Origin: Planctomycetota bacterium
GTDB lineage: Bacteria; Planctomycetota; Planctomycetia; Pirellulales; Pirellulaceae
Assembly (NCBI GenBank): GCA_023417165.1
Contig: JAEZGD010000584.1
Location: 1-11,936, forward strand
Direction: 5' to 3'
DNA: 11,936 nucleotides
Under the pieces are notes generated by a model. The model had not been told where the DNA came from, did not search any database, and worked only from the letters and a program-made list of their open reading frames with translations. Every line of letters starts with the position of its first letter. Positions within the stretch are counted from its first letter, which is position 1. Below, piece after piece: positions 479 through 11,936 of the stretch. Position numbers and translations under genes: made by a program.

Positions 479-675
479 CGCGACCTCTGAGCAGAATGGC
501 GGGTGGGGATGCTCGTAAAACGGACTGTAGCGTCGAGGATGACGAACTCTCAGTCAAGTCTTTGCGGCAAGCCAGCGACGAAGCATGGCTTCGCCCTCCG
601 TTCGGCCCATCGTCGCCCCCTGTTCGCGGAGCGAAAGGCGACAGACAGGCGGGCGAAAGAAGCTACAATAAGGCT

Positions 676-1032
676 ATGCCAGCACCCGATGCCTTTGATC
701 CCGTCGCCGATGGGCGGACGTGGCCGCGATTCTTTGCCAGAGCAGCGATTCTGTCGCCGTTTGCGGCCATGCTGTTGATTGCGCTGGCGCGCCAAATAGA
801 ACGCCATCGCTCGCCCGGCATGGCGGTGATGATCGAGAATGTCTCGAATGGCGCAAGCGCGAGCATTGCCGTCTTGGGATTCGTGCTTGGCATCGCCGGC
901 ATGATCGGCGGTTGGCGACGGCGCTCTCGCGATACGATGATGATCGCGGGACTAGGGCTCTTCGTGAGTGGCGGCTATCTGGTACTGGCGATCTTCGCCA
1001 ACGTGCTCACCGCGATGATGCGCCAGGGCTAA
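676..1032 (+). CDS. Small integral membrane protein (about 118 aa, 3 predicted TM helices). The ORF-track start at 496 is probably too far upstream.
   Basis: The C-terminal 110 aa are hydrophobic, with helices such as AAILSPFAAMLLIALA, IAVLGFVLGIAGMIGGW and GLGLFVSGGYLVLAIFANVL. A start at 496 would sit only 17 nt from the divergent start of the 23..478 gene. The internal ATG at 676 is preceded by AAGG. The start is uncertain (alternatives 496 or 820). Confidence 0.4.
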   Translation: MPAPDAFDPVADGRTWPRFFARAAILSPFAAMLLIALARQIERHRSPGMAVMIENVSNGASASIAVLGFVLGIAGMIGGWRRRSRDTMMIAGLGLFVSGGYLVLAIFANVLTAMMRQG

Positions 1033-1070
1033 GCCGCGCAGGCTACTAGCGTGCTCAAGAAAAGAACACA

Positions 1071-1093
1071 GGACGGGCGCGCGGTGCCCGTCC
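1071..1093 (-). terminator. Rho-independent terminator for the His-rich gene, on the minus strand.
   Basis: GGACGGGC(gc)-GCG-(gu)GCCCGTCC hairpin with an 8-10 bp GC-rich stem, 24 nt downstream of the TAA at 1117..1119. On the minus strand it is followed immediately by UGUGUUCUUUUCUU (reverse complement of 1051..1070). Confidence 0.65.
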
Positions 1094-1116
1094 TGCGTCG
1101 ATCACTGGCACTGACG

Positions 1117-1368
1117 TTACCAGTTGCATCCGTAACCGCCGTAGCCGTAGTACGGATTGTAATACGGCTGGATGACAATCGGCTTGTGGTGATGGTGGTG
1201 GAAGTGACCGTGTTTGTGATGGTGGTGTTTGTGGTGATGATGATGGCCATGGTGATGGTGCTTGTGATGATGACCACCACCGTGAGCGCTCGCCACACTG
1301 ACGCCGCCCAACACCAAGATCGCCGCGACCACTGCCAAAGCCAAAACTCGGGATACCAAACGTTTCAT
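1117..1368 (-). CDS. Secreted or periplasmic histidine-rich small protein (83 aa): Sec signal peptide, 34-aa poly-His/Lys/Gly tract, Tyr/Gly-rich C-terminus ending GCNW. Putative metal-binding protein.
   Basis: ATG at 1368 is preceded by GAGGAGG with a 7-nt spacer. An alternative in-frame ATG lies at 1386. The N-terminus MKRLVSRVLALAVVAAILVLGGVSVASA-HGGG has a typical n-h-c region with an AxA cleavage site. The mature part is HGGGHHHKHHHHGHHHHHKHHHHKHGHFHHHHHKPIVIQPYYNPYYGYGGYGCNW (29 His). It lies on the same strand, 127 nt downstream of the MNIO-partner gene. Confidence 0.7.
   Translation of the reverse strand: MKRLVSRVLALAVVAAILVLGGVSVASAHGGGHHHKHHHHGHHHHHKHHHHKHGHFHHHHHKPIVIQPYYNPYYGYGGYGCNW
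1183..1284 (-). repeat. Imperfect CAC/CAT(/AAA/GGC) trinucleotide microsatellite encoding the His tract. Slippage-prone.
   Basis: The plus strand reads gtggtgatggtggtggaagtgaccgtgtttgtgatggtggtgtttgtggtgatgatgatggccatggtgatggtg. These are GTG/ATG triplet iterations in frame with the His codons. Confidence 0.5.
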
Positions 1369-1495
1369 GGAATGCCTCCTCGGCATGAAGTTACCGCCCT
1401 GGAAATCCGCTCGTCTTAGTGACGAGCTTCTTCCTGTCTAAGCGGCCTCCTGCGAGAAGCGTTACACGACGATCAGCGATTTAATTCGCAGCGTC

Positions 1496-2245
1496 TCATG
1501 CCACCGCGACCAATCCCATCGCCGCCAGATCGCGCACGATGTCGAGCAGATCGTCGTTCGGCGCGGCCTTAGATGTCGCCGCCCAGGACAAGTAGGTCAC
1601 GGGTCCTAGCGCCGCCAACTCGGCCAACAGCGCGCTGCCGCAATCGTCGAGCGCTGCGGTGCTGATCTCGCCTGCGACGGGAAAGAAAACGACGCGAGTT
1701 GTACGATCGACTTGCTCGCCTAACAGTTCGGCGGTGCCAATCGTCGTCCAGACACGAATCGGATTGAGATACAAGATCGCCACCCCGGCAGGCAACTGCT
1801 CGACGAGTGCTTGCGTCACGCTCCAACGCTCATGAAAGCGCATATAGTCGAGCCGATGCTCGCGCGCCAGCGCTTCGACCTGATGCCGGGCGCGCTGGCA
1901 AGCGATGTAGTCGAGCTGCCGCGACGACAAGCGGCGCATTTGCTCGAGCCAGGTCAGCATGCGATCACAATCGCTGACGCCGGTATCGTAGGCTGAGAGT
2001 GTTGTCTCGCGGACATAGGCTTCGACGAGATTGTCAAAGCGCCGGAACGCCGGAGCGAGGAACTCCAAGCCATTCATCAGCTTCTCGAAACGTTTGTCGA
2101 GATTGCCGTCGACAAACATTTTGACTGCCGCCGGCGTCGAATCTGGCGCCAAATCGACGGCAATAGCTTCACTATTTGCATGCGCCAGCGCACGAGTCAT
2201 GCGCAACAGGTGATCGCGATACGTCGACGGGGTTTGCACCACCAT
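1496..2245 (-). CDS. Putative MNIO partner protein (MbnC/DUF2063-like position and size, about 249 aa). The family assignment rests on gene context, not on recognised motifs.
   Basis: It lies immediately downstream of the DUF692 gene on the same strand. ATG at 2245 is preceded by GGGAGG with a 7-nt spacer. The longer ORF-track version starts at a TTG at 2320, 5 nt after the MNIO stop. Known MNIO systems (MbnBC, TglHI, BufBC, ChrHI) pair DUF692 with a 250-280 aa partner encoded directly downstream. Confidence 0.5.
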   Translation of the reverse strand: MVVQTPSTYRDHLLRMTRALAHANSEAIAVDLAPDSTPAAVKMFVDGNLDKRFEKLMNGLEFLAPAFRRFDNLVEAYVRETTLSAYDTGVSDCDRMLTWLEQMRRLSSRQLDYIACQRARHQVEALAREHRLDYMRFHERWSVTQALVEQLPAGVAILYLNPIRVWTTIGTAELLGEQVDRTTRVVFFPVAGEISTAALDDCGSALLAELAALGPVTYLSWAATSKAAPNDDLLDIVRDLAAMGLVAVA

Positions 2246-2325
2246 GAGCAAGCCTCCCAAGCGAGAATGTCGAATGTCGAAATCCCAATGTCGAAGCCAT
2301 TCAACACGGGGATTTCCCAATCCTC

Positions 2326-3162
2326 TTACACACGCACCACGGGCCGATACGTTTCCTCGGCGATCGCCCTGGCGAGCCGCGCTTCGGCGCGCCAGCCGCG
2401 CTCATCCGGAAAGTTTTGATCGCGTTCGATAAAGATGGCGTCCACCTTGCCGCGGCCTTGCTGCAAGCCGAAGCGGTACAGTTCCCACACCGCATCGGGA
2501 ATGGGATGCGAGTGACTATCGATATACATGCCAGCCGCTTCGTCGAACACACCGCCCGCCAGGTGCATTTGCACCCGATGCGCCGAAGGCATCACCTCGG
2601 CGATGAACTCGTACGGATCGAACTGAAAGTTTAGCGCGTTGGCATACACGTTGGTCACGTCCAATAGCCAGCCGCAGCCTGTGCGCGTCAGCAATCGCGA
2701 GACAAACTCCGCTTCGCTCATCTCGCCTTGCAGGCGAAACAAGTAAGCAATGGTTTCGATGTAAAACGTCAGCGGCTCGAAGTAGTTCTGAATCTGATTG
2801 ACGTTGCGGCACGTGGCATCTAAGGCCGCTTCGGTCCATGGCGGAGGCGCAAAGTGCCCCATTTCGACGCCATCACGAACGTCGCGCGTGAATCCCAGAT
2901 GATCGCTGATACTCGCCGCGCCGTTTTCGAGCGCGATCTCGCGCAGCGCGCTTAAGTATTCGAGGCCCGGCGCTTCCGGACTGCATGGCGACAGCTTCAG
3001 CGCATGCAGGCTGACATAGGGGAAGTCGGCATCGGCGAGATAGCGTTCGATGCGCAGCGGATCGTCTGCACGCTCGAACGTGATTTCGCAGGCGTCGATC
3101 GCTGGATCGTCCAAGTAGGGCCGATTCTGTTCGCGCAGCGCATAACCGATGTAAGGTAGCAT
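2326..3162 (-). CDS. DUF692 / UPF0276 family multinuclear non-heme iron oxidase (MNIO; MbnB/TglH/BufB-like), 278 aa.
   Basis: The sequence carries the family signature blocks: IGYALR near the N-terminus, SISDHLGF, WLLDVTNVYANALNFQFDPYEFIAEVMPSAHRVQMHLAGG and DSHSHPIPDAVWELY. These correspond to the conserved metal-ligand regions of DUF692 proteins (xylose-isomerase-like TIM barrel). The length is typical. Confidence 0.85.
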   Translation of the reverse strand: MLPYIGYALREQNRPYLDDPAIDACEITFERADDPLRIERYLADADFPYVSLHALKLSPCSPEAPGLEYLSALREIALENGAASISDHLGFTRDVRDGVEMGHFAPPPWTEAALDATCRNVNQIQNYFEPLTFYIETIAYLFRLQGEMSEAEFVSRLLTRTGCGWLLDVTNVYANALNFQFDPYEFIAEVMPSAHRVQMHLAGGVFDEAAGMYIDSHSHPIPDAVWELYRFGLQQGRGKVDAIFIERDQNFPDERGWRAEARLARAIAEETYRPVVRV

Positions 3163-3241
3163 GGCATCTCAAGGCAAGAGGGAAGGGCAAGTCCCAAGTG
3201 CTCGTTCCCTCGCAGCACTTGGACTTGTTCATGCGGCCGAC

Positions 3242-3370
3242 TTACCAGCACCGACAACAGCGACAGCAACGGCAACAACGGCCGCCGCGCCGCTCTTGCA
3301 CGCCTTGGCGCTGGGTTGTCTTGAGGTTGACAAGTTCCCGCACCGCCTTGGTTTTGGGCTTGGTCTTCAT
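3242..3370 (-). CDS. Candidate RiPP precursor peptide (42 aa), MKTKPKTKAVRELVNLKTTQRQGVQERRGGRCCRCCRCCRCW. Lys-rich leader plus poly-Cys/Arg core. Absent from the ORF track because it is below the 60-aa cut-off.
   Basis: Hand translation of the minus strand gives ATG at 3370..3368 preceded by GGAGGAG (3376..3382 on plus) with an 8-nt spacer, and a TAA stop at 3244..3242. It is on the same strand, 79 nt upstream of the DUF692 start. Seven Cys fall within the last 11 residues. This is the canonical position for an MNIO substrate gene. Confidence 0.6.
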   Translation of the reverse strand: MKTKPKTKAVRELVNLKTTQRQGVQERRGGRCCRCCRCCRCW

Positions 3371-3610
3371 CGTTCCGTCTCCTCCGTCGTGGAAAAGAAG
3401 CGTTGTCTTGGCCGATCGCCGGCGAGTGCTTTGTCTTGAGCCTCACTTCCGGCGATCGCGGTGACTGCTACCAGGGGCTTATCAAAACGCATCCCGCACC
3501 CAGCACGTGACGCGAGAAAGTAAAAGGACCGCCGAGGGGGAGTGTCGCACGGCCCGCGTGACACCAACACTTCTCCTTAAAGCAGTCGCCGTGCCAAAGC
3601 GATCACTGCG

Positions 3611-3741: not shown

Positions 3742-5654
<1,913 letters not shown>

Positions 5655-5658
<4 letters not shown>

Positions 5659-6446
5659 GGTTGCTCTCGCTTCGGCTCCGAAAGCAGCAACGTATTCTTG
5701 CTGCGATCGATGCCAATCAGCCCGCCAGTCACCGGATCGCTGGCAATGCCTTGGCCGGTGAAGGGCGACTTCTCGATCTGCACTAGTTCGATCGGCTGCC
5801 CTAGCTTAGGCAATCGCAGACGATACAAGCGGCGATGGTCATGATCGGTCGTCAGCAACGCACCTTCACGCCACACGCCGCCCGAGAGGCTATACGTACC
5901 GAGCTGCTCGATGACCTCGGGAGCGTACGTCCAGCGTGCGATCTCTTTCCAATCGTGATCGAACTGCACCAAAAACGTTTCGGCGTTCTGCTTGCCATAC
6001 TTGGCGAAGTTGCACCACCAGTGATTTTCGTGATGAATCGCCCAGGTGAGGCTGCCGCCATAGTCGCCGAAGTCTTTGAACGTCGTGAGCTTCATCGTCT
6101 CGACGTCGAGCACCTTGATCTCGCTTAGCTCCGGCGTGCGCGGGTAATTCGAGTGCGCGCAATACAGCTTCCCGTTCAGGAAGAAGCCGCTATTAAGATG
6201 GTGCGCCTCGCCGGTGCTGACCGCGATGCGCTGGCCCGTTTGGCGGTCGTACTTGGCGACAACGCGGTTGTCGATCGCATACAAGTGCTTCTCGTCGGCC
6301 GCGGCCGCTTGATTGGCTTCCGCCGCGGCGATTGAGCGCGTGGCTTGCCACTCGCTGGCCGTCGGCTGCTCTGCCCAGGCGGGGCTGAGCAGGCTCAGCA
6401 GCATGCAAACGGTTGAAGTAGCAAGCAAGCGCAGCGACCTTGGCAT
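5655..6446 (-). CDS. Secreted hypothetical protein (263 aa) with an N-terminal signal peptide. Translationally coupled to the flanking genes.
   Basis: The N-terminus MPRSLRLLATSTVCMLLSLLSPAWA-EQP has an AxA cleavage site. The start ATG is 3 nt after the upstream ABM gene's TAA. The stop TGA overlaps the RecQ ATG. No family is recognised; the sequence is Trp/His-rich (HHENHWWCNF). Confidence 0.6.
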
Positions 6447-6734: not shown

Positions 6735-7063
6735 GCTGCATCCGTAATGCGAGGGGAAAACAAACTTGGGAACGTTCGCATTGTACCGCGAACCTTCGCC
6801 CTGCGAGATAACTCTGCTCTGAGTAGGTCCCGCCTGCCGGGCGGGACTTGCGTTGCGATTAACCGCAGTCCCTCCGGCCAACCGAGCCGGAATTCTCGAG
6901 GAGCTCGATCATGCGTACTTCCTGCAGTATTGCGCAATCGAGCCTACGAGCGCGCTAAGTCCGACTTCGCGTTCCGCTGGGCTCACACTCTCCGCTGATG
7001 GTTCTATCCTTCAGTTTGCCGGCGCAGATGTTCTGCGACGGTTTCTTCCTTTCGAGAGTTGAG

Positions 7064-7504
7064 ATGACTGCCAAGAAGCCTAACCGCAAGCAGATGCTTG
7101 CGCACTGTGACGAGCTGCGCGACGACGACGGCGTCGACCCTCGCGAATTCTTTCAACGAAAAGCCAGCGGCTCGCGCCGCCAACACCACCGCAAGACCGG
7201 CCAACTCTGTCAGCAAGTGGCCGAAACATTGAGCTTGGTGCTCGGTAGCGAATTCGACGATCCACAACTGCACAACCTGCAAGTCGTCTCGGTCACGCCT
7301 GCGCCGGATGCGACGCAATTGCTGGTGACCGTCGCCACCGATGGCCCGCTCGACGAAGCGACAATCGCCGCCACGTACGCATGCCTGGCGCGCGTCGCTG
7401 GGCGATTGCGCAGCGAAGTCGCGTCCGCCATCACGCGCAAGCGAGCGCCGCGACTATCCTTCCGGATCGTTACGATCGCCAACAACCAGGAGGTGCAACC
7501 ATGA
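7064..7504 (+). CDS. RbfA-like (ribosome-binding factor A, KH-fold) protein with a roughly 30-aa basic N-terminal extension, 146 aa.
   Basis: The region QQVAETLSLVLGSEFDDPQLHNLQVVSVTPAPDATQLLVTVAT...LARVAGRLRSEVASAITRKRAPRLSFRI aligns to RbfA (RVAEEI..IL...DPRL..VTVT.VEVS.DL..AKVYVS....AL..ASGFLRS.LGK.L.LR..PEL.F). The start is uncertain (ATG 6998 or 7064; 7064 is preferred because GAGAG lies upstream). The stop TGA overlaps the rtcB ATG. Confidence 0.45.
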   Translation: MTAKKPNRKQMLAHCDELRDDDGVDPREFFQRKASGSRRQHHRKTGQLCQQVAETLSLVLGSEFDDPQLHNLQVVSVTPAPDATQLLVTVATDGPLDEATIAATYACLARVAGRLRSEVASAITRKRAPRLSFRIVTIANNQEVQP

Positions 7505-8646
7505 AGCTGCATACCTGGTTGGCGGAACCGCTCGCGCCCGAAGTAGCTGCTTCGCTCGAACGCATACAAGCGCTCGACGATGTGCAACATGTAGCGGTGA
7601 TGCCGGACGTCCACTTAGCGATCGAGGTTTGCATCGGCGTTGCGCTAGCGACGACCGAACTGATTTATCCCGCTGCGGTCGGCGCAGACATCGGCTGCGG
7701 CATGGCGGCCGTGCGACTCGAGGCCGATGCACAGCTTTTGGACAGCGAGCAGGCCGCTGCGACGGTCCTGGCAGATCTCTATCGCCACGTGCCGTGGAAT
7801 AGGCATCCCAAAGCGACGCAGCCGCAACTTCCGGCGACGATTGCAAACGCGCCACTCAGCGATCCGCGACTGGAACAGCTGCGCCGGCGCGATGGGCGCG
7901 TGCAGTTTGGCACGCTGGGGCGTGGCAATCACTTTCTCGAGTTACAGGCCGATCAGACGGGCCAGCTATGGGCACTCGTGCATAGCGGCTCGCGCTCGAT
8001 GGGCCAAATGATCACTGCGCTTCATCTGCTTAACCCAGACGCGCGATCCGGCGGCTTGGCTTGTCTCTTGGCCAGTGAACCGACGGGCCAAGCCTACCTG
8101 CATGACGTCGCCTGGGCGCTTCGATATGCCGAGCATAGCCGCTTGGCGATGTTGCAAGCGGCCGAGCGGCTGTTTCGGGAGCGGTTCGCGGTTGGCGTCG
8201 ATTGGAGCACGCTCATCCAGTCGCATCACAACCACGTCCGCTACGAAGAGCACTTTGACCAGCGCTGGCTGGTGCATCGCAAGGGAGCCCAATCGGCGCA
8301 AGCCGACGAACCTGGCATCTTGCCGGGCTCGATGGGGGCCGTCAGCTTTCATTTCGTTGGCAAAGGCTGCGCTGCAGCGCTTTGTTCGAGCGCTCACGGG
8401 GCAGGGCGGAAGCTCAGTCGCACCGAGGCCAGCAAACGCATTTCCTCGCGCCAGCTAGAGCAGCAGCTAGAGCAGCAGCTAGAGCAGCAGCTGGGGCGCA
8501 TCTGGTTCGATCATCGCCGGGCGGACCAGCTGCGCGAGGAAGCGCCTGCGGCTTACAAAGACGTTCGCGCCGTGCAGCGTGCCCAGGCAGAACTGACGAA
8601 AGTCGTGCGCGAGTTGCGGCCGGTGCTCAGCTATAAGGGGGTGTAA
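7501..8646 (+). CDS. rtcB: RNA-splicing ligase RtcB (381 aa).
   Basis: AGGAGG sits 7 nt upstream of the ATG at 7501. The motifs VAVMPDVHLA, PAAVGADIGCGM, GRGNHFLELQ, HSGSRSMG and SAHGAGRKL match the RtcB metal-binding and His-GMP active-site blocks. The ORF-track start at 7381 is the read-through frame of the upstream gene's tail. Confidence 0.85.
   Translation: MKLHTWLAEPLAPEVAASLERIQALDDVQHVAVMPDVHLAIEVCIGVALATTELIYPAAVGADIGCGMAAVRLEADAQLLDSEQAAATVLADLYRHVPWNRHPKATQPQLPATIANAPLSDPRLEQLRRRDGRVQFGTLGRGNHFLELQADQTGQLWALVHSGSRSMGQMITALHLLNPDARSGGLACLLASEPTGQAYLHDVAWALRYAEHSRLAMLQAAERLFRERFAVGVDWSTLIQSHHNHVRYEEHFDQRWLVHRKGAQSAQADEPGILPGSMGAVSFHFVGKGCAAALCSSAHGAGRKLSRTEASKRISSRQLEQQLEQQLEQQLGRIWFDHRRADQLREEAPAAYKDVRAVQRAQAELTKVVRELRPVLSYKGV
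8452..8493 (+). repeat. In-frame tandem repeat (cagctagagcag x3 plus a partial unit) encoding (LEQQ)3 inside rtcB.
   Basis: Three perfect 12-nt units at 8452..8463, 8464..8475 and 8476..8487, followed by cagctg. It translates to SRQLEQQLEQQLEQQLGRIW. Confidence 0.8.
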
Positions 8647-8759
8647 GAACCCCAAGATAGCCGCGCGGAAGCAAAATTCCGTCCTTCGAGTGATGCGAAC
8701 CTTCGGCGCGCCAGGTCGCTCTCCTTATGCTGTCGGGCCATGTGGCTCGGCAGCATGAC

Positions 8760-8831
8760 GGCGCTGGAGCCAGACGGTGCGGCGGTTGCCTGCAAAGCAG
8801 CTTCAAGTGGGTTCGACTCCCATCGGCGTCT
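8760..8831 (+). tRNA. Candidate tRNA-Cys(GCA), 72 nt. Good cloverleaf with a U73 discriminator, but non-canonical G8 and G14. Possibly a divergent gene or a pseudogene.
   Basis: Hand fold. Acceptor: ggcgctg/cggcgtc, 7 bp with 2 G-U pairs. D arm: gcca-gacggtg-cggc. Anticodon arm: gttgc-cuGCAaa-gcagc. Variable loop: ttcaa. T arm: gtggg-ttcgact-cccat. Discriminator t at 8831; U73 is the CysRS identity element. Confidence 0.45.
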
Positions 8832-8934
8832 CTGTCCTCGATGGAGGACACTTCGTGCGCGGGCTGACCAGCGGCTTCGTGCGCCCATGGCGCTCGACGT
8901 TCCGAACATGGAATCTAAGCAGTTCGACACGGAA

Positions 8935-9006
8935 GAGCTTTTAGCTCAGTGGTAGAGCACCAGGTTTGTAATCTGGAGGTCACGGGTTCGACTCCCGTAT
9001 GGTTCA
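8935..9006 (+). tRNA. tRNA-Thr(UGU), 72 nt. Canonical D, anticodon and T arms. The acceptor stem has one U-U mismatch and two G-U pairs. CCA is not encoded directly after the discriminator.
   Basis: Acceptor: gagcttt. Then ta, gctc-agtggta-gagc, a. Anticodon arm: ccagg-ttTGTaa-tctgg. Variable loop: aggtc. T arm: acggg-ttcgact-cccgt. 3' acceptor: atggttc. Discriminator a (9006), then gcACCA. Confidence 0.6.
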
Positions 9007-9339
9007 GCACCATAGACCGGTTGGACGCAAACAGCGTTTAACCCCCAAGTGCCCAAAGGCGTTGGGCAAGCGAGTCCATCCGCCGCCGGGGCCTGGCGCG
9101 ATCCACGATCGCGTCATGCACGTGCGGCAGCAGTAGCCAGCGCTTTGTAGTGCGTAGATACCGCCGCGCGACGAGCGCCGGCAACGCTCCGCAGCGCAGC
9201 GACGAACCACCGACCAGCGAGTCTGGCCGGCGTGCGCGTCGCCAGCCAGCGGCGCTACGCCGGCCACGTCTTGCGGCTGAAGCGCACTCCGCGATTGGCC
9301 GCTGTGATGGCGAGTTTCGCCCGGCGCCGGCGGGTGTAT

Positions 9340-9487
9340 TTTACTAGCCCGACGCGCGAGCGAGGGAAGAGACAGGCTTGAACCCGATTGTCGCCATGGA
9401 TTCCGCTTTGCACCTTCCGCAGCGGAACCCATGGCTATGCGTGATTCAAACAGTGCTCTTCCCTCGCTCGCGCGTCGGGCTAGTAAA
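9340..9487. repeat. Perfect 32-bp inverted repeat (9340..9371 and 9456..9487) around an 84-bp spacer. The spacer contains a nested 13-bp near-perfect inverted repeat (9394..9406 and 9422..9434). Candidate MITE-like or regulatory cruciform in the 5' region of the SPFH gene.
   Basis: tttactagcccgacgcgcgagcgagggaagag is the exact reverse complement of ctcttccctcgctcgcgcgtcgggctagtaaa. The inner pair ccatggattccgc / gcggaacccatgg has 1 mismatch. It ends 35 nt before the SPFH ATG. Confidence 0.7.
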
Positions 9488-9522
9488 GAGAGAGCACGAG
9501 AAGGAATCGGAGAATTAGTAGC

Positions 9523-10623
9523 ATGTTTCAGCGCATCAAGATCCGCAGCGACGAACTGGGTTTCGTCTTTCACGATGGCGAATTCACGGGCGTGTTGCGC
9601 CAGGGCACGCACTGGAAGTTCGATCCGCTGCGCAAGCAGAAGATCGAAGTCGTACAGTTGCGCGACCCGTGGTTGTCGCACGCCAAGCTCGACGTCATCT
9701 ACAAGAGCGGTGTGCTGAAGGATCGCGCGATCGTGCTCGACCTCAAGGATTACGAGCGTGCGCTGGTCTGGATCGACGGTCGCTTTGCGCGCGTACTGGC
9801 GCGCGGCTTGTACGCGCTGTGGACCACGCACCGCGACGTGCGAGTCGAAATCATCGATGCGCGCGAAGTGCGTTTTGTACACAGCGACCTGAAGATGATC
9901 GCGCAACTGCAAAGCATTGCGATGGTGCTCGACATCTGCCAGGTCCAACGCGACCATGCAGGCGTGCTGTTTATCGACGGCAAGTACGTCGAAACGCTGC
10001 CGCCGGGCCAGTACGCATTCTGGAAGGGTGTCGGCGACGCGCGTGTGGTTGAAGTCGACCTGCGCGACTGCGTCGTGGATGTTAGCGGCCAAGAGATCAT
10101 CACCTCCGACAAAGTCACGCTGCGCATGAACGCGCTGGTGCTGTATCGCATTGTCGACGCACGCCGCGCGGTCAGCAAAAGCGACGACGCCCGCCAAGCG
10201 TTGTACCGCGAAGTGCAACTAGCGCTGCGAGCGGTGATCGGAGCGCGCGAACTGGATGCGTTTTTGACGGATAAGGACGCCGTCGCCAGCGACATCCACG
10301 AAGCGCTGAAGCGCCGCGCCAGCGAACTGGGTCTAGAGATCGTCTCGGTGGGCATCCGCGACGTGATCCTGCCTGGCGATATGAAGGACCTGATGAACAA
10401 GGTCACGGAAGCCAAGAAGGCGGCCGAGGCTAACCTGATCGCGCGCCGCGAAGAAACCGCCGCGATGCGCAGTCAGGCCAACACGGCGAAGCTGCTGGCC
10501 GACAACCCGACGTTGATGCGTCTGCGGGAGCTCGAGATCCTGGAGAAGATCGCGATCGGCGGCAAGCTTAACGTCGTGCTGGGCGAGAAGGGTCTGTCGG
10601 ACCGCGTCATCAACTTGCTGTAA
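9523..10623 (+). CDS. SPFH / band-7 (stomatin/HflKC-like) domain protein, 366 aa, with an N-terminal triplicated roughly 67-aa repeat region and no obvious TM anchor.
   Basis: The C-terminal half QEIITSDKVTLRMNALVLYRIVDARRAV...LGLEIVSVGIRDVILPGDMKDLMNKVTEAKKAAEANLIARREETAA... is a typical SPFH core plus coiled-coil. The N-terminal repeats are ELGFVFHDGEFTGVLRQGTHW..IEVVQLRD, ERALVWIDGRFARVLARGLYALW..VEIIDARE and HAGVLFIDGKYVETLPPGQYAFW..VVEVDLRD. Confidence 0.8.
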   Translation: MFQRIKIRSDELGFVFHDGEFTGVLRQGTHWKFDPLRKQKIEVVQLRDPWLSHAKLDVIYKSGVLKDRAIVLDLKDYERALVWIDGRFARVLARGLYALWTTHRDVRVEIIDAREVRFVHSDLKMIAQLQSIAMVLDICQVQRDHAGVLFIDGKYVETLPPGQYAFWKGVGDARVVEVDLRDCVVDVSGQEIITSDKVTLRMNALVLYRIVDARRAVSKSDDARQALYREVQLALRAVIGARELDAFLTDKDAVASDIHEALKRRASELGLEIVSVGIRDVILPGDMKDLMNKVTEAKKAAEANLIARREETAAMRSQANTAKLLADNPTLMRLRELEILEKIAIGGKLNVVLGEKGLSDRVINLL

Positions 10624-10630
10624 CCTTTTC

Positions 10631-10663
10631 GGCCCCGCAGCCGTCGCGCTGCGGGGCCTTTTG
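10631..10663 (+). terminator. Rho-independent terminator between the convergent SPFH and MgtC-like genes.
   Basis: GGCCCCGCAGC-cgtcgc-GCTGCGGGGCC, a perfect 11-bp stem followed by TTTTG. It is preceded by CCTTTTC, so it is partially bidirectional. Confidence 0.7.
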
Positions 10664-10685
10664 CATGCGCGGCATGGGCTGCTTC

Positions 10686-11936
10686 TTAGCCGGCCTTCAT
10701 CCAGACGATCGCCACCACACCGGCGATCACCACGGCTGCGGTCACGCTCGCCACGCGCCATGCCATGGGACGTGAGCCAAAAAAGAATACTAAACCACAT
10801 TTAACGAGCGTATTGCTGAGGACGGCGATGGTGATCGCGATGACCGCAATGTGTGAATCTTTGACTTCGGAAGCATACTGCGCCATCGCCAGCGTAATCG
10901 CATCCACATCGGTCAGCCCGGCGATCGCGGCCACCACGTAAAAGCCCTGCTCCGAAATATACGTCTTCACCAACTGGACAATCAGTTCGATCAAGGTGAA
11001 GAAGGCAGCAAATTTCATCGCCGAAATGAGGCTAAAAGGATTCTTCAGCGGCACCTCTTCCTCGTCGCCGCTTTCGGTCTGGCGACTGCGATACCAATAC
11101 CAAAGCGCCGCCGCCGCTACGAGCAAACCCATCGCGCTCATCGGCCAAATCAGTGGCCATACCAACGGACGATAGACAATCGATACCGCCGCAATGACGC
11201 GCACGAACATAATGGCCCATGCCAGCAATACGCCGGCGGCCAGGGACTTGTACAGCGTCTCGCCTTGGTGCTGTTGGCGGCTCTCGTCGACGCTGCGTTT
11301 GGCAAAGGTCAAAGTGACCGCGGTCGAGGAGACCATGCCACCGAACAATCCTGTGAGCGCATTACCATGCTGCGTGCCCAGCCAGCGCGTCGCGACATAG
11401 CCGACCAGCGACAAGCCGGAGATTAAGATCACCAACCACCAGATGCGATTGGGATTGATCGCGCCCCAAGGATCGATAGTTTGATCGGGCAGCAGCGGCA
11501 GCACAATAAACGAAGCAATCAGCAGTTTGACGCCAGCGTGAATGTCGTCCTGTCGCAACCTTGCGACCATGTTGTGCAGGGCCGGCTTGTAGGTGAGCGC
11601 GACCGACATGATCACCGCCATCCCGAGCGCCAACTCGCGATAACCGAAGACTGCGCAGCCGCCTAATAAAAAGACAAAGATGGCGGCAATCTCGGTGGTG
11701 ATGCCGTACGACTTGTTCTGGCGCGTATAAGCGAAGTAGCCAAAAATAATTTGGCCGCCGATCACCAGAGTCATCGCCGCGAAGATCCACGGCGAAGCCT
11801 GCATCGCCAGCCAGGCGGAGACCGCCCCGGCGAGCGCCAATAAGATAAAGGTGCGCAGCCCCGCGATGTCCCGGGCGTCGTCGACTTCCTTCTTGCGCTC
11901 GCGGTCGATACCAATCAGCACGCCAATGAGCAGTGC
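10686..11936 (-). CDS. MgtC/SapB-family N-terminal domain plus DUF4010-type polytopic membrane protein. 5'-partial: the true start lies just beyond the window edge.
   Basis: The reading frame stays open to the window end (…ALLIG-VLIGIDRERKKEVDDARDIAGLRTFILLALAGAV matches the MgtC N-terminal GxERE...AGLRT motif). The GTG at 11921 is an ORF-caller artefact. About 10 TM helices over more than 411 aa. TAA stop at 10686..10688. Confidence 0.7.
   Translation of the reverse strand, partial: ALLIGVLIGIDRERKKEVDDARDIAGLRTFILLALAGAVSAWLAMQASPWIFAAMTLVIGGQIIFGYFAYTRQNKSYGITTEIAAIFVFLLGGCAVFGYRELALGMAVIMSVALTYKPALHNMVARLRQDDIHAGVKLLIASFIVLPLLPDQTIDPWGAINPNRIWWLVILISGLSLVGYVATRWLGTQHGNALTGLFGGMVSSTAVTLTFAKRSVDESRQQHQGETLYKSLAAGVLLAWAIMFVRVIAAVSIVYRPLVWPLIWPMSAMGLLVAAAALWYWYRSRQTESGDEEEVPLKNPFSLISAMKFAAFFTLIELIVQLVKTYISEQGFYVVAAIAGLTDVDAITLAMAQYASEVKDSHIAVIAITIAVLSNTLVKCGLVFFFGSRPMAWRVASVTAAVVIAGVVAIVWMKAG

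What the first reader, a model, noticed from the sequence alone, without database searches (positions are those of the whole stretch)
1117..3370. Previously unrecognised MNIO (DUF692) RiPP-like cluster: Cys-rich peptide, MNIO, partner, His-rich secreted protein
Four co-directional minus-strand genes with short intergenic gaps. They are a 42-aa peptide with the Cys-dense C-terminus RCCRCCRCCRCW, a DUF692/MbnB-like oxidase with all signature blocks, a partner protein of about 250 aa in the MbnC/DUF2063 position, and a signal-peptide poly-His protein closed by a strong intrinsic terminator. Established MNIO systems (methanobactin MbnABC, TglHI, bufferin BufABC, chryseobasin) all modify Cys in a small precursor encoded directly upstream of the oxidase, and several yield metal-binding products. 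An (RCC)n-RCW core combined with a cationic Lys-rich leader lacking a signal peptide is not a described MNIO substrate class that I know of. The adjacent periplasmic poly-His protein suggests a metal (Cu/Zn/Ni) handling role.
Basis: partly seen in the sequence, partly recalled or inferred. Interest (0 to 1): 0.92.

Follow-up and report, generated by a model that had tools for sequence, protein, structure and literature searches.

The report
Planctomycete Arg-Cys-Cys peptide modification cluster
A tiny gene for a peptide ending in repeated Arg-Cys-Cys sits in front of an iron-dependent peptide-modifying enzyme and its peptide-binding helper. The trio recurs across Planctomycetota and looks like an undescribed branch of a known family of modified, probably metal-binding, peptides.

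Summary

The enzyme (2326..3162) is a true MNIO:
- Pfam PF05114 scores 173.6 bits.
- All nine iron ligands and the catalytic Asp are present.
- Its closest folds are solved MNIOs.

The ~250-aa partner matches no sequence family. Its confident model matches only the MNIO partners TglI and NGO1945 plus RiPP recognition elements.

The 42-aa peptide is real and conserved:
- 74 of 89 related loci, almost all Planctomycetota, have one upstream on the same strand.
- They share the leader motif KAVRELxxLRT.
- Their Cys/Arg repeat cores track the enzyme tree.
- Synonymous codons vary freely.
- A stable hairpin follows the stop codon.

Extra orphan copies occur elsewhere in one genome, as is typical of RiPP precursors.

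The His-rich secreted protein is not part of the system. It occurs only in the window and its two closest relatives. Most other lineages carry a PF13748 membrane protein there instead.

The cluster fails the membership tests for bufferins/captophorins, methanobactins and pearlins. I found no description of it in the literature searched.

Verdict: a new variant of a known kind. The product chemistry and metal role are still inferred. Interest is about 0.6.

The parts
3242..3370 (-). Precursor peptide gene ('A'): 42 aa. It has a cationic leader with the conserved motif KAVRELxxL(K/R)T, the core (RCC)3-RCW, and no signal peptide.
   Evidence: The ORF is listed. It is conserved upstream of the MNIO in 74 of 89 loci. 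The alignment shows R11, E12 and L16 as invariant or nearly so. 42 synonymous DNA versions encode the core. The longest hydrophobic run in the first 30 aa is 4 residues. 61 database clusters are all labelled 'hypothetical protein'.
3379..3385 (-). Shine-Dalgarno-like GGAGGAG, 8 nt upstream of the peptide's ATG.
   Evidence: Read directly from the sequence.
3188..3227 (-). RNA hairpin starting 14 nt after the peptide's stop codon. It is a probable partial terminator or transcript stabiliser that sets the ratio of precursor to enzyme.
   Evidence: -21.9 kcal/mol, z = -3.95, and 1 of 200 dinucleotide shuffles folds as well. Across 74 loci the 73 nt from the stop codon have a median MFE of -29.9, against -19.3 in control windows inside the MNIO gene. 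61% versus 3% have z < -2.
2326..3162 (-). MNIO enzyme ('B'): 278 aa, a multinuclear non-heme iron oxidative enzyme with a TIM-barrel fold.
   Evidence: PF05114 scores 173.6 bits, E = 6e-51. It is below every NCBIfam subfamily cut-off. H53, H88, E136, D168, N171, H200, D215, H217 and E246 are invariant and align to the TglH/3BWW/MbnB ligands. The AF2 model has pLDDT 84 and its top nine PDB matches are all MNIOs.
1496..2245 (-). Partner protein ('C'): 249 aa. It has an N-terminal helical DUF2063-like domain (~9-153) and a C-terminal RiPP recognition element (~157-248). It belongs to the 'PME-type 2' class.
1117..1368 (-). Lineage-specific accessory gene: a secreted poly-His protein (83 aa from the ATG at 1368; the ORF could also start at 1386). 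It is not part of the conserved system.
   Evidence: It has a signal-like N-terminus and 23 His in a 30-aa window. Orthologs exist only in L084 and L085. Its family hits are all weak (below the curated cut-offs) and mostly fall on the His-rich stretch.
1065..1099 (-). Intrinsic terminator closing the operon in this lineage.
   Evidence: 14-bp stem with 9 G-C pairs, a 7-nt loop and a T-rich tail.

Best explanation
This is a three-gene RiPP-type peptide-maturation system found mainly in Planctomycetota.

Proposed mechanism:
1. The 42-aa peptide is the substrate.
2. Its conserved leader, KAVRELxxL(K/R)T, is bound by the RiPP-recognition-element domain of the partner protein.
3. The partner forms a heteromeric complex with the MNIO, as TglI does with TglH and MbnC with MbnB.
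4. The partner presents the C-terminal Cys/Arg repeat core to the enzyme's iron centre.
5. The enzyme uses O2 to oxidise the Cys residues. The most likely result is sulfur-bearing heterocycles of the 5-thiooxazole type made by its nearest HMM relatives, BufB and HvfB.
6. The product is a strongly cationic, thiolate-rich peptide that most probably binds soft metals such as Cu(I).

A hairpin right after the precursor gene keeps the precursor transcript in excess over the enzyme transcript. In most lineages a PF13748 membrane protein, an ABC-type transmembrane domain without an ATPase, is encoded next and probably moves the product across the membrane. In the window's own lineage that gene is replaced by a secreted poly-His protein.

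Shown: gene content, conservation, folds, catalytic residues, co-diversification and the hairpin.
Inferred: complex formation, leader binding, which Cys are modified, the chemistry, export and metal binding.

My probabilities: about 0.85 that the peptide is the MNIO/partner substrate, about 0.45 for thiooxazole-like chemistry, and about 0.45 for a metal-handling role.
For: Enzyme:
- PF05114 scores 173.6 bits.
- The nine iron ligands listed for TglH in PMC10880893 align to invariant residues.
- The catalytic Asp of captophorin MNIOs, FonB-D249 (PMC13097082), corresponds to the invariant D248 through the 3BWW 'ERDF' / window 'ERDQ' alignment.
- The model's top nine PDB matches are MNIOs.
- The best subfamily HMMs are BufB at 142 bits and HvfB at 125 bits.

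Partner:
- The model is confident.
- Its only significant fold matches are the MNIO partners TglI and NGO1945, followed by RRE domains of TbtB, MibB, TigE, ThcOx, MccB, TbiB1, McbB, TfuB1, LynD, NisB, PbtF and PqqD.

Peptide:
- 74 of 89 loci have it, always upstream and on the same strand.
- The leader motif is conserved.
- 42 synonymous DNA versions encode the core.
- Core type and C-terminal variant follow the MNIO tree.
- Some loci carry multiple copies: three in L050 and two in L080.
- Orphan precursors exist. L211 holds a tandem array of three, in the same MAG as the full cluster L029.
- Two of four peptides found by the peptide profile alone sit directly upstream of MNIO plus partner.

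Other:
- The hairpin after the precursor gene is supported.
- PF13748 follows the partner in 46 loci, which is about two thirds of the loci with at least 1.2 kb of downstream sequence.

Metal context, which is weak: the poly-His protein in this lineage; DUF4198 and HemP upstream and an ECF sigma factor downstream in L001, L086 and L212; and copper binding by related MNIO products (PMC13097082).
Against: - No biochemical data exist for any member.
- The enzyme scores far below the curated cut-offs of every characterised subfamily: BufB 142 vs 310, HvfB 125 vs 360, ApyH 62 vs 400, ChrH 39 vs 600, MbnB 24 vs 325.
- By fold, both enzyme and partner are at least as close to TglHI as to the thiooxazole-forming lineage. 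TglHI does quite different chemistry, Cys beta-carbon excision.
- The residue after the catalytic Asp is an invariant Gln, unlike either captophorin group (Phe or Asp). Known enzymes were tested on isolated Cys flanked by Gly/Lys, not on vicinal Cys-Cys next to Arg.
- No protease is encoded, and there is no complete ABC exporter.
- The peptide has no signal peptide, so the site of action, cytoplasm or periplasm, is unknown.
- Eight loci with enough upstream sequence have an MNIO but no recognisable peptide. One of them, L006, also lacks the partner.
- The metal link rests on non-conserved neighbours.
Confidence: 0.6

Rival explanations
1. The three-gene RiPP logic is the same, but the chemistry and purpose differ. 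The MNIO would perform a transformation other than thiooxazole formation on the vicinal Cys pairs. Candidates are TglH-like carbon excision, MbnB-like oxazolone/thioamide formation, cross-linking, or something new. The Arg-rich product would then act as an antimicrobial, a nucleic-acid or membrane binder, or a redox agent rather than a metallophore.
For: - Both the enzyme and the partner have TglH and TglI as their best structural matches.
- The enzyme is far below all subfamily cut-offs.
- The specificity position after the catalytic Asp is a family-specific Gln.
- MNIOs are known to catalyse many unrelated reactions (titles and abstracts).
- The core is extremely cationic, with a median net charge of +10. 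This is unusual for the metallophores described.
- No conserved metal-related gene belongs to the core.
Against: - The best HMM matches are the thiooxazole-forming BufB and HvfB.
- Nothing in the conserved cluster looks like an immunity gene, a protease or a complete exporter, as expected for a toxin.
- The peptides seldom end in Cys (2 of 71), so a TglH-type reaction on a C-terminal Cys does not fit.
- No PEARL/TglB-like gene is conserved nearby.
Confidence: 0.25
2. The small ORF is a cis-acting regulatory leader peptide, not a substrate. It would be a transcription attenuator that senses Cys or Arg charging through its runs of Cys and Arg codons. The hairpin after it would be the attenuator terminator controlling the MNIO operon.
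For: The architecture resembles classical attenuators. A short ORF dense in one or two codon types is followed within 14 nt by a stable hairpin. In some loci the hairpin is followed by a U-run, as in L065 and L210.
Against: - The N-terminal part, which would be irrelevant for a codon sensor, is the most conserved part of the peptide. KAVRELxxLRT persists across MNIO divergence down to 59% identity.
- The downstream partner carries an RRE, a domain whose job is to bind such leaders.
- Core type co-varies with the enzyme clade.
- Orphan copies and a tandem triple array occur with no MNIO downstream.
- The gap between peptide and MNIO varies from 67 to about 1400 nt.
- No other candidate substrate is conserved in the neighbourhood.
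Confidence: 0.04
3. The peptide is an unmodified, metallothionein-like Cys-rich metal or redox buffer. It merely shares a neighbourhood with an MNIO/partner pair that acts on another, unidentified substrate.
For: - Seven Cys in 12 residues could bind metals without modification.
- Orphan peptide genes exist without an adjacent MNIO.
- Some MNIO/partner loci lack a recognisable peptide.
- One orphan array lies next to a secreted thioredoxin-like protein.
Against: - The association is tight and directional. 74 of the 83 loci with enough upstream sequence (89 in all) have the peptide, always upstream on the same strand.
- A leader motif is paired with an RRE partner.
- Core and enzyme co-diversify.
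- All characterised Cys-acting MNIOs modify the peptide encoded immediately upstream (PMC12452194).
- The genome holding the orphan array also has a full cluster.
Confidence: 0.05
4. One reading: a four-gene functional unit in which the secreted poly-His protein is an integral partner. For example, it could be a periplasmic metal donor or acceptor for the modified peptide.
For: - The gene is co-directional and lies 109-127 nt after the partner.
- No terminator lies between them, and a strong terminator lies after it.
- The gene is retained with sequence changes in the two closest relatives, so it is a real gene.
- It replaces the PF13748 gene at the same position.
Against: It is absent from every other related locus. 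The scan of 84 loci found it only in the window, and L084 and L085, fetched afterwards, are the only others. The next-closest clade, with an 87% identical MNIO, has an ECF sigma factor and an A2M-like gene there instead. Its family hits are all weak (below the curated cut-offs) and mostly fall on the His-rich stretch.
Confidence: 0.1

Closest known systems
Captophorins / bufferins / oxazolin (MNIO + PME-type 1 systems: BufABC, HvfABC, FonABC; PMC11626156, PMC13097082)
   Same: - The gene order is the same: Cys-rich precursor, then MNIO, then partner.
- The partner has a helical domain plus an RRE.
- These enzymes are the best HMM matches to the window's MNIO: BufB 142 bits and HvfB 125 bits.
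- The iron ligands and the catalytic Asp are conserved.
- The precursors have repetitive cores with many Cys next to basic residues (Lys-Cys or Cys-Lys there, Arg-Cys-Cys here).
- ECF sigma factors appear near some loci.
   Different: - The enzyme scores less than half of the curated cut-offs.
- The partner lacks the DUF2063 sequence signature entirely.
- The precursor has no Sec signal peptide and is only about 43 aa.
- The Cys are vicinal pairs flanked by Arg.
- The specificity residue after the catalytic Asp is Gln, not Phe or Asp.
- No DoxX gene is present.
- The leader has a crisp recognition motif, whereas DUF2063-associated precursors show none (PMC12710340).
- The host phylum is Planctomycetota, not Pseudomonadota.
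TglHI of 3-thiaglutamate (pearlin) biosynthesis (PDB 8HI7/8HCI; PMC10880893)
   Same: - Its substrate peptide also lacks a signal peptide.
- Its partner also lacks the DUF2063 Pfam signature (PME-type 2).
- All nine iron ligands align.
   Different: - Sequence identity is only about 22% for the enzyme and 12-14% for the partner.
- TglH acts on a single Cys appended to the C-terminus by a PEARL enzyme, and no such gene is conserved here.
- The peptides here seldom end in Cys.
- TglH's Asn73 (H-x-N) is Leu here (H-A-L), as in 3BWW.
Methanobactin MbnABC
   Same: It has a small signal-less precursor, an MNIO plus a partner, Cys as the site of modification, and a metal-binding product.
   Different: - The MbnB model scores 24 bits against a cut-off of 325.
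- There is no MbnC-like sequence.
- No TonB transporter, MATE exporter or aminotransferase genes are present.
- The core is a repeat rather than two isolated Cys.
'PME-type 2' partners and 'adjamnio' orphan precursor families of the MNIO landscape survey (Antoine et al. 2025, PMC12452194)
   Same: The survey already established three points. Many MNIOs pair with DUF2063-like partners that the Pfam model misses. Signal-less Cys-motif precursors exist. The absence of a signal peptide correlates with PME-type 2 partners. This cluster fits that pattern exactly.
   Different: None of the families it describes matches a ~43-aa Planctomycete peptide with a KAVRELxxLRT leader and an (RCC)n core. Those families are adjamnio-1, -2, -3 and -7 (CxxC), adjamnio-I (122-293 aa) and adjamnio-IV (119-146 aa, CxxCC). 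The only Planctomycete example discussed is a 516-aa TIGR04222 membrane protein of Pirellula staleyi. The survey's alignments are images and could not be searched.

Membership tests
MNIO superfamily (Pfam PF05114, MbnB_TglH_ChrH) | Matches the family HMM above the curated gathering score. | tested here: met
   173.6 bits against a cut-off of 25, E = 6.3e-51, covering profile positions 6-262 of 263.
MNIO superfamily (Pfam PF05114, MbnB_TglH_ChrH) | Full set of iron ligands (TglH H71, H107, E151, D184, N187, H216, D229, H231, E258). | tested here: met
   H53, H88, E136, D168, N171, H200, D215, H217 and E246 are invariant in 14 family members. They align to the TglH, 3BWW and MbnB motifs. The ligand list comes from PMC10880893.
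MNIO superfamily (Pfam PF05114, MbnB_TglH_ChrH) | TIM-barrel fold like solved MNIOs. | tested here: met
   The AF2 model has pLDDT 84.3 and pTM 0.87. Its top nine Foldseek PDB matches are TglH, 3BWW and MbnB, with TM 0.65-0.78.
MNIO superfamily (Pfam PF05114, MbnB_TglH_ChrH) | Iron-dependent, O2-dependent modification of a peptide substrate. | not testable with these tools
   This needs protein expression, metal analysis and an activity assay.
Captophorin/bufferin systems (MNIO + PME-type 1, 5-thiooxazole) | The MNIO reaches the curated score of the BufB or HvfB equivalog models. | tested here: not met
   BufB 142.3 against 310; HvfB 124.6 against 360.
Captophorin/bufferin systems (MNIO + PME-type 1, 5-thiooxazole) | The partner carries the DUF2063 (PF09836) sequence signature. 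| tested here: not met
   No Pfam or NCBIfam hit at E <= 1. The profile search finds nothing in PDB sequences. The partner family is compact, with 341 clusters and no large weak tail.
Captophorin/bufferin systems (MNIO + PME-type 1, 5-thiooxazole) | The precursor has an N-terminal Sec signal peptide. | tested here: not met
   The longest hydrophobic run in the first 30 residues of any of the 71 peptides is 4, and the leaders are Lys/Arg/Thr-rich.
Captophorin/bufferin systems (MNIO + PME-type 1, 5-thiooxazole) | A Cys-rich precursor is encoded immediately upstream of the MNIO, in the order A-B-C. | tested here: met
   74 of 89 loci, same strand, upstream; the partner follows the MNIO.
Captophorin/bufferin systems (MNIO + PME-type 1, 5-thiooxazole) | Cys is converted to 5-thiooxazole and the product binds copper. 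| not testable with these tools
   This needs MS, UV and NMR of the product plus metal-binding assays.
PME-type 2 partner proteins (Antoine et al. 2025) | Encoded right after an MNIO, lacks the DUF2063 Pfam signature, but is structurally related to NGO1945 (3DEE) and TglI (8HI7), with a helical domain with or without an RRE. | tested here: met
   [not shown]
Pearlin / TglHI-type systems | A PEARL (TglB-like) enzyme appends Cys to the scaffold peptide, and the MNIO acts on that C-terminal Cys. | tested here: not met
   No additional conserved enzyme gene lies in the neighbourhood. Only 2 of 71 peptides end in Cys.
Methanobactin (MbnABC) | MbnB and MbnC equivalogs. | tested here: not met
   MbnB scores 24.3 against 325, and no MbnC hit is found.
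Transcription-attenuator leader peptide | Only the regulatory codons are conserved, and the ORF is always in cis, directly upstream of the regulated genes. | tested here: not met
   The N-terminal motif is the best conserved part. Orphan and tandem copies occur without a downstream MNIO.
Transcription-attenuator leader peptide | Mutually exclusive terminator and antiterminator structures overlap the end of the ORF. | not tested
   Only the single hairpin after the stop codon was analysed.

The most novel reading that the evidence does not exclude
The MNIO acts on vicinal Cys-Cys pairs. Each Cys would use the carbonyl of the residue before it, so adjacent Cys could give directly linked bis-heterocycles or another sulfur chemotype not yet seen in RiPPs. 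The product would be a leader-retaining, poly-Arg peptide with no signal peptide. This would define a new RiPP class found mainly in the largely uncultured Planctomycetota. It would have its own recognition motif, KAVRELxxLRT, paired with a PME-type 2 RRE, and a non-canonical, ATPase-less ABC-type membrane protein for transport.
Probability: 0.3. Interest if true: 0.8.

Novelty: new variant of a known kind. Interest (0 to 1): 0.6.

Why it matters
MNIOs are one of the most active areas of RiPP enzymology, and each new subfamily studied so far has produced unexpected chemistry. This family offers several things.

1. It has a substrate type that no characterised MNIO has been tested on: vicinal Cys pairs embedded in Arg.
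2. It has an unusually clean, short leader motif paired with a sequence-orphan RRE partner. This could clarify how PME-type partners recognise substrates, which remains ambiguous for the DUF2063 class (PMC12710340).
3. Natural core variants (RCC, CRS, CxRG, LERCGR, CHxCH) co-diversify with the enzyme. They form a ready-made specificity series.
4. It is a first defined RiPP family for a phylum with few characterised natural products.
5. If the product is a metal buffer, it extends the captophorin strategy to peptides without signal peptides, which may act in the cytoplasm.

The minimal three-gene system is small enough for direct heterologous reconstitution.

Tried and rejected
1. Reverse-association test by DNA pattern. 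CGNTGYTGYCGNTGYTGYCGNTGY was scanned against metagenome contigs. All 80 loci returned were chance matches, namely GC-rich Ala/Leu/Pro-coding or trinucleotide-repeat DNA read in another frame. None had the leader motif or an MNIO. It was replaced by looking up the neighbours of peptides found with the peptide profile.
2. AlphaFold on peptide-linker-partner fusions, to test leader-RRE docking.
3. A small ORF in the 170-320 nt gap between MNIO and partner in many loci, called as a 53-aa gene in L002. It is not a conserved protein. The same DNA element is read in different frames in different loci, so it is a repetitive intergenic element.
4. The His-rich protein as a core component. Rejected because it occurs only in the window and its two closest relatives.
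5. tRNA-Cys(GCA), 5.4 kb away, as a functional neighbour of a Cys-rich peptide gene. None of 60 related loci has one, so this is coincidence.
6. A riboswitch or other known RNA near the cluster. Rfam finds only the two tRNAs.
7. Sigma-70 promoter scan. It found none, with 0.9 expected by chance. This is not informative for Planctomycetes.
8. A sequence-level link of the partner to DUF2063, MbnC or any PDB chain. None was found with Pfam, NCBIfam or a 50-sequence profile against PDB. The 1.84-billion-protein profile search shows a compact family without a large weak tail.
9. Searching the survey's supplementary alignments for the motif. They are held as images.
10. Alternative substrates in the loci without a peptide (L028, L033, L052, L068, L072, L079). 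No conserved Cys-rich candidate was seen upstream.

Full report
**Observation.**
- A 42-aa peptide at 3370..3242: MKTKPKTKAVRELVNLKTTQRQGVQERRGGRCCRCCRCCRCW. It has 7 Cys and a net charge of +11.
- A 278-aa enzyme at 3162..2326.
- A partner whose true start is the ATG at 2245. Its homologs are 249-250 aa, and a GGGAGG lies 7 nt upstream.
- A His-rich ORF ending at 1117. It probably starts at the second ATG, 1368, as its orthologs do.
- A 14-bp-stem intrinsic terminator at 1099..1065.
- A RecQ helicase gene lies upstream on the same strand.

**The enzyme.** The 278-aa protein matches Pfam PF05114 (MbnB_TglH_ChrH) at 173.6 bits over the whole model. The nine iron ligands reported for TglH are H71, H107, E151, D184, N187, H216, D229, H231 and E258 (PMC10880893). 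They align to H53, H88, E136, D168, N171, H200, D215, H217 and E246, all of which are invariant in an alignment of 14 family members.

The catalytic base of captophorin MNIOs is FonB-Asp249 (PMC13097082). It corresponds to the invariant D248 through the 3BWW 'ERDF' / window 'ERDQ' alignment. The next residue governs substrate selectivity. It is Phe in Lys-Cys enzymes and Asp in Cys-Lys enzymes, but here it is an invariant Gln.

An AlphaFold model (pLDDT 84) has solved MNIOs as its nine best PDB matches: TglH, 3BWW and MbnB. Membership of the MNIO superfamily is therefore secure. Membership of any characterised subfamily is not. The scores are BufB 142 against a cut-off of 310, HvfB 125/360, ApyH 62/400, ChrH 39/600 and MbnB 24/325.

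**The partner.** It matches no Pfam or NCBIfam family. A 50-sequence profile finds nothing among PDB sequences. Its AlphaFold model is confident (pLDDT 91.2, pTM 0.84) and shows a helical domain followed by a strand/helix domain.

This is what the MNIO landscape survey calls a PME-type 2 partner (PMC12452194). The family is compact, with 341 clusters at 50% identity among 1.84 billion proteins, 291 of them at E <= 1e-10. I found no sequence bridge to the very large DUF2063 family.

**The peptide is a real, conserved gene.** MNIO homologs at 59-87% identity are abundant in metagenomes and in Planctomycetota MAGs. The first four neighbourhoods examined all had a small upstream ORF with the same leader and an (RCC)n core.

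I built a leader HMM and searched it against all six frames of 89 loci. It found 77 hits in 74 loci. Every hit lay on the MNIO strand and upstream of it, and none lay elsewhere. Six of the 15 negative loci simply lack upstream sequence.

The alignment shows the motif KAVRE(L/I)xxL(R/K)T, with R11 invariant and E12 and L16 invariant or nearly so. A variable spacer follows, then the core.

The heptapeptide CCRCCRC is encoded by 42 distinct DNA strings. TGC/TGT and the Arg codons (CGN, with AGA once) are mixed at every position. Selection therefore acts on the amino acids, not on a DNA repeat.

The 71 distinct peptides are 37-68 aa long (median 43). Their median net charge is +10, and none has a hydrophobic stretch longer than 4 residues in its first 30. 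They therefore lack signal peptides.

Gene callers have predicted such peptides in 61 database clusters, all labelled 'hypothetical protein'.

Behind the same leader, other clades carry:
- (CRS)n cores (L055, L059, L067, L071, L073, L075);
- a period-4 CxRG repeat (Gemmata sp. IIL30, L065);
- eight LERCGR units (L070);
- FCHxCH cores (L061, L063, L066).

On a neighbour-joining tree of the MNIOs, these core types and the C-terminal variants (...RCW...RGGR...RCRR) group by enzyme clade. This is expected if the enzyme and its substrate co-evolve.

**What belongs to the cluster.** I clustered all neighbouring ORFs across loci. Only three protein families recur broadly: the MNIO, the partner, and a ~300-aa membrane protein directly after the partner in 46 loci. 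That is about two thirds of the loci with at least 1.2 kb of downstream sequence.

The membrane protein is PF13748 (ABC_membrane_3, 124-178 bits). It is an ABC-exporter-type transmembrane domain without an ATPase, with only faint similarity to the transmembrane halves of BmrA and MsbA. The window's clade lacks it.

The His-rich secreted protein occurs only in the window and in its two nearest relatives, L084 and L085, which share the whole synteny. The next clade, with an 87% identical MNIO, has an ECF sigma factor and an A2M-like gene at that position. The fourth gene of the finding is therefore a recent, lineage-specific addition.

**A conserved RNA feature.** The 73 nt that begin at the precursor's stop codon fold much more stably than control windows inside the MNIO gene. 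The median MFE is -29.9 against -19.3 kcal/mol, and 61% against 3% have z < -2.

The window's own hairpin (3227..3188) has -21.9 kcal/mol and z = -3.95 against dinucleotide shuffles. In some loci a U-run follows the hairpin.

A hairpin between precursor and enzyme genes is a familiar way to keep the precursor transcript in excess. That statement rests on my own knowledge of lanthipeptide and other RiPP operons.

**Reverse association.** I looked up four peptides that had been found by the peptide profile alone.
- Two lie directly upstream of MNIO plus partner (L210 and L212).
- One is solitary (L209).
- One is a tandem array of three precursor genes beside a secreted thioredoxin-like protein (L211). 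It sits in the same MAG (JBGTSJ01) that carries a complete cluster on another contig (L029).

L050 and L080 carry three and two copies respectively, next to the enzyme. Extra and remote precursor genes are typical of RiPP systems and hard to reconcile with a purely cis-regulatory role.

**Mechanism proposed.** The RRE domain of the partner binds the leader motif. The partner and the MNIO form a heteromer, as TglHI and MbnBC do, and present the Cys/Arg core to the iron centre. O2-dependent oxidation then modifies the Cys residues.

The nearest HMM relatives make 5-thiooxazoles that bind copper (PMC13097082). I therefore rate a thiooxazole-like, thiolate-bearing, soft-metal-binding product as the most likely outcome. 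In most lineages it would be exported by the PF13748 protein.

My probabilities are:
- about 0.85 that the peptide is the substrate of the pair;
- about 0.45 for thiooxazole-type chemistry;
- about 0.45 for a metal role.

The chemistry cannot be read from similarity. By fold, both proteins are at least as close to TglHI, which excises a carbon from a C-terminal Cys. The selectivity residue is unique to this family. No characterised MNIO has been tested on vicinal Cys next to Arg.

**Rivals.**
- A classical attenuator leader peptide has the same outline: a short ORF rich in a few codons, then a hairpin. I took this seriously. It is contradicted by the strongly conserved N-terminal motif, the RRE in the partner, the co-diversification of core and enzyme, and the orphan and tandem copies.
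- An unmodified metallothionein-like peptide is contradicted by the same association data.
- The four-gene reading with the poly-His protein can hold only for this shallow lineage.

**Comparison with what is known.** The system works like the captophorin/bufferin and TglHI systems but fails the defining tests of each. It does not reach any subfamily score. It has no DUF2063 signature, signal peptide or DoxX gene. It has no PEARL enzyme or C-terminal Cys, and no MbnC.

It fits the survey's generalisation that signal-less precursors go with PME-type 2 partners (abstract). None of the described 'adjamnio' families matches it. The only Planctomycete case discussed there is a 516-aa TIGR04222 membrane protein.

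I found no paper in the held library containing the core motif in a relevant context. None of the 2025-2026 MNIO papers deals with this family. Some of these MNIOs and a few of the peptides are in NCBI, so they were probably inside the surveyed data sets without being singled out. The survey's alignments are images, so I could not exclude this.

DUF2063-associated RREs show no clear recognition motif in their precursors (PMC12710340). That makes the crisp leader motif here useful.

**Dead ends.**
- The metagenome DNA-pattern scan returned only chance matches.
- The small ORFs between MNIO and partner are a repetitive intergenic element, not a gene.
- The nearby tRNA-Cys is a coincidence.
- No riboswitch is present.

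**Verdict.** The His-rich component and some of the novelty claims are not.

This is a new variant of a known kind: an undescribed precursor, enzyme and partner family within the MNIO RiPPs. It is widespread in Planctomycetota, and its chemistry and function remain to be determined. Interest is 0.6.

Noticed in passing
L211:3501-4354 (same MAG, JBGTSJ01, as L029); L209:3501-3629: Orphan precursor genes with the same leader and (RCC)n core occur away from any MNIO. L211 has a tandem array of three (44, 44 and 42 aa) directly after a secreted thioredoxin-like protein. L209 has a single copy next to a histidine kinase and a SpoIIE-type response regulator.
   Followed up: partly
L006:6001-6846: This is an orphan MNIO, 81% identical to the window's enzyme. 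It has no peptide and no partner nearby. A DnaK-like gene lies upstream and a ScpA-like gene downstream on the other strand. It may be a decayed cluster or one that works in trans.
   Followed up: partly
L018, L025, L031, L036-L041, L044-L046, L051: the 170-320 nt gap between MNIO and partner (e.g. L031:6841-7026): A repeated intergenic DNA element lies between the MNIO and partner genes in one clade. It reads as ...GRPGRSVEVC... in one frame and ...GGVWKFCLDDV... in another. It is not a conserved ORF and may be a REP/MITE-like element or a structured RNA.
   Followed up: partly
window 8760-8832 (+) and 8935-9006 (+): tRNA-Cys(GCA) and tRNA-Thr(TGT) genes lie here. The tRNA-Cys is about 5.4 kb from the Cys-rich peptide gene. 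None of 60 related loci has a tRNA-Cys, so the proximity looks coincidental.
   Followed up: yes
window 1117-1368 (-): After its poly-His tract, the His-rich protein ends in a Tyr/Gly/Pro-rich tail with a single Cys: KPIVIQPYYNPYYGYGGYGCNW. Its two orthologs keep this tail with variations. Its best family hit is a sub-threshold match to NCBIfam VPA0510 (32 bits against 95).
   Followed up: partly
window 496-1032 (+): A convergent 178-aa membrane protein, with a weak DUF2189 hit, lies just beyond the terminator. It is syntenic in the two closest relatives, L084 and L085.
   Followed up: no
window 5655-6446 (-) and 3742-5658 (-): A 263-aa protein with a signal-like N-terminus matches no family. 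Its stop codon overlaps the start of the RecQ helicase gene by 4 nt, which suggests the two are co-transcribed upstream of the peptide cluster.
   Followed up: no
window 6998-11921: The other genes in the window are ordinary housekeeping or context genes: an RbfA-like gene (6998-7504, +), RtcB RNA ligase (7381-8646, +), an SPFH/Band 7 protein (9523-10623, +) and an MgtC/DUF4010 membrane protein (10686-11921, -). The 404-aa ORF at 9004-10218 (-) overlaps the SPFH gene and looks spurious.
   Followed up: no
L001:1684-2683 and 4987-5535; L086:2013-2564; L212:646-1266 and 5551-6126: Some clusters are flanked by ECF sigma factor genes. L001 also has a DUF4198 protein and HemP upstream. This loosely echoes the sigma/anti-sigma pairs of bufferin clusters, but it is not conserved across the family.
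   Followed up: partly
L002:4866-5027; L012:~6849-7020: In two loci a small hydrophobic ORF of about 50-70 aa, with one predicted transmembrane stretch, lies between the MNIO and the partner. It is not conserved elsewhere. It may relate to the very small 'adjamnio-V' proteins that the survey reports after MNIO genes.
   Followed up: no
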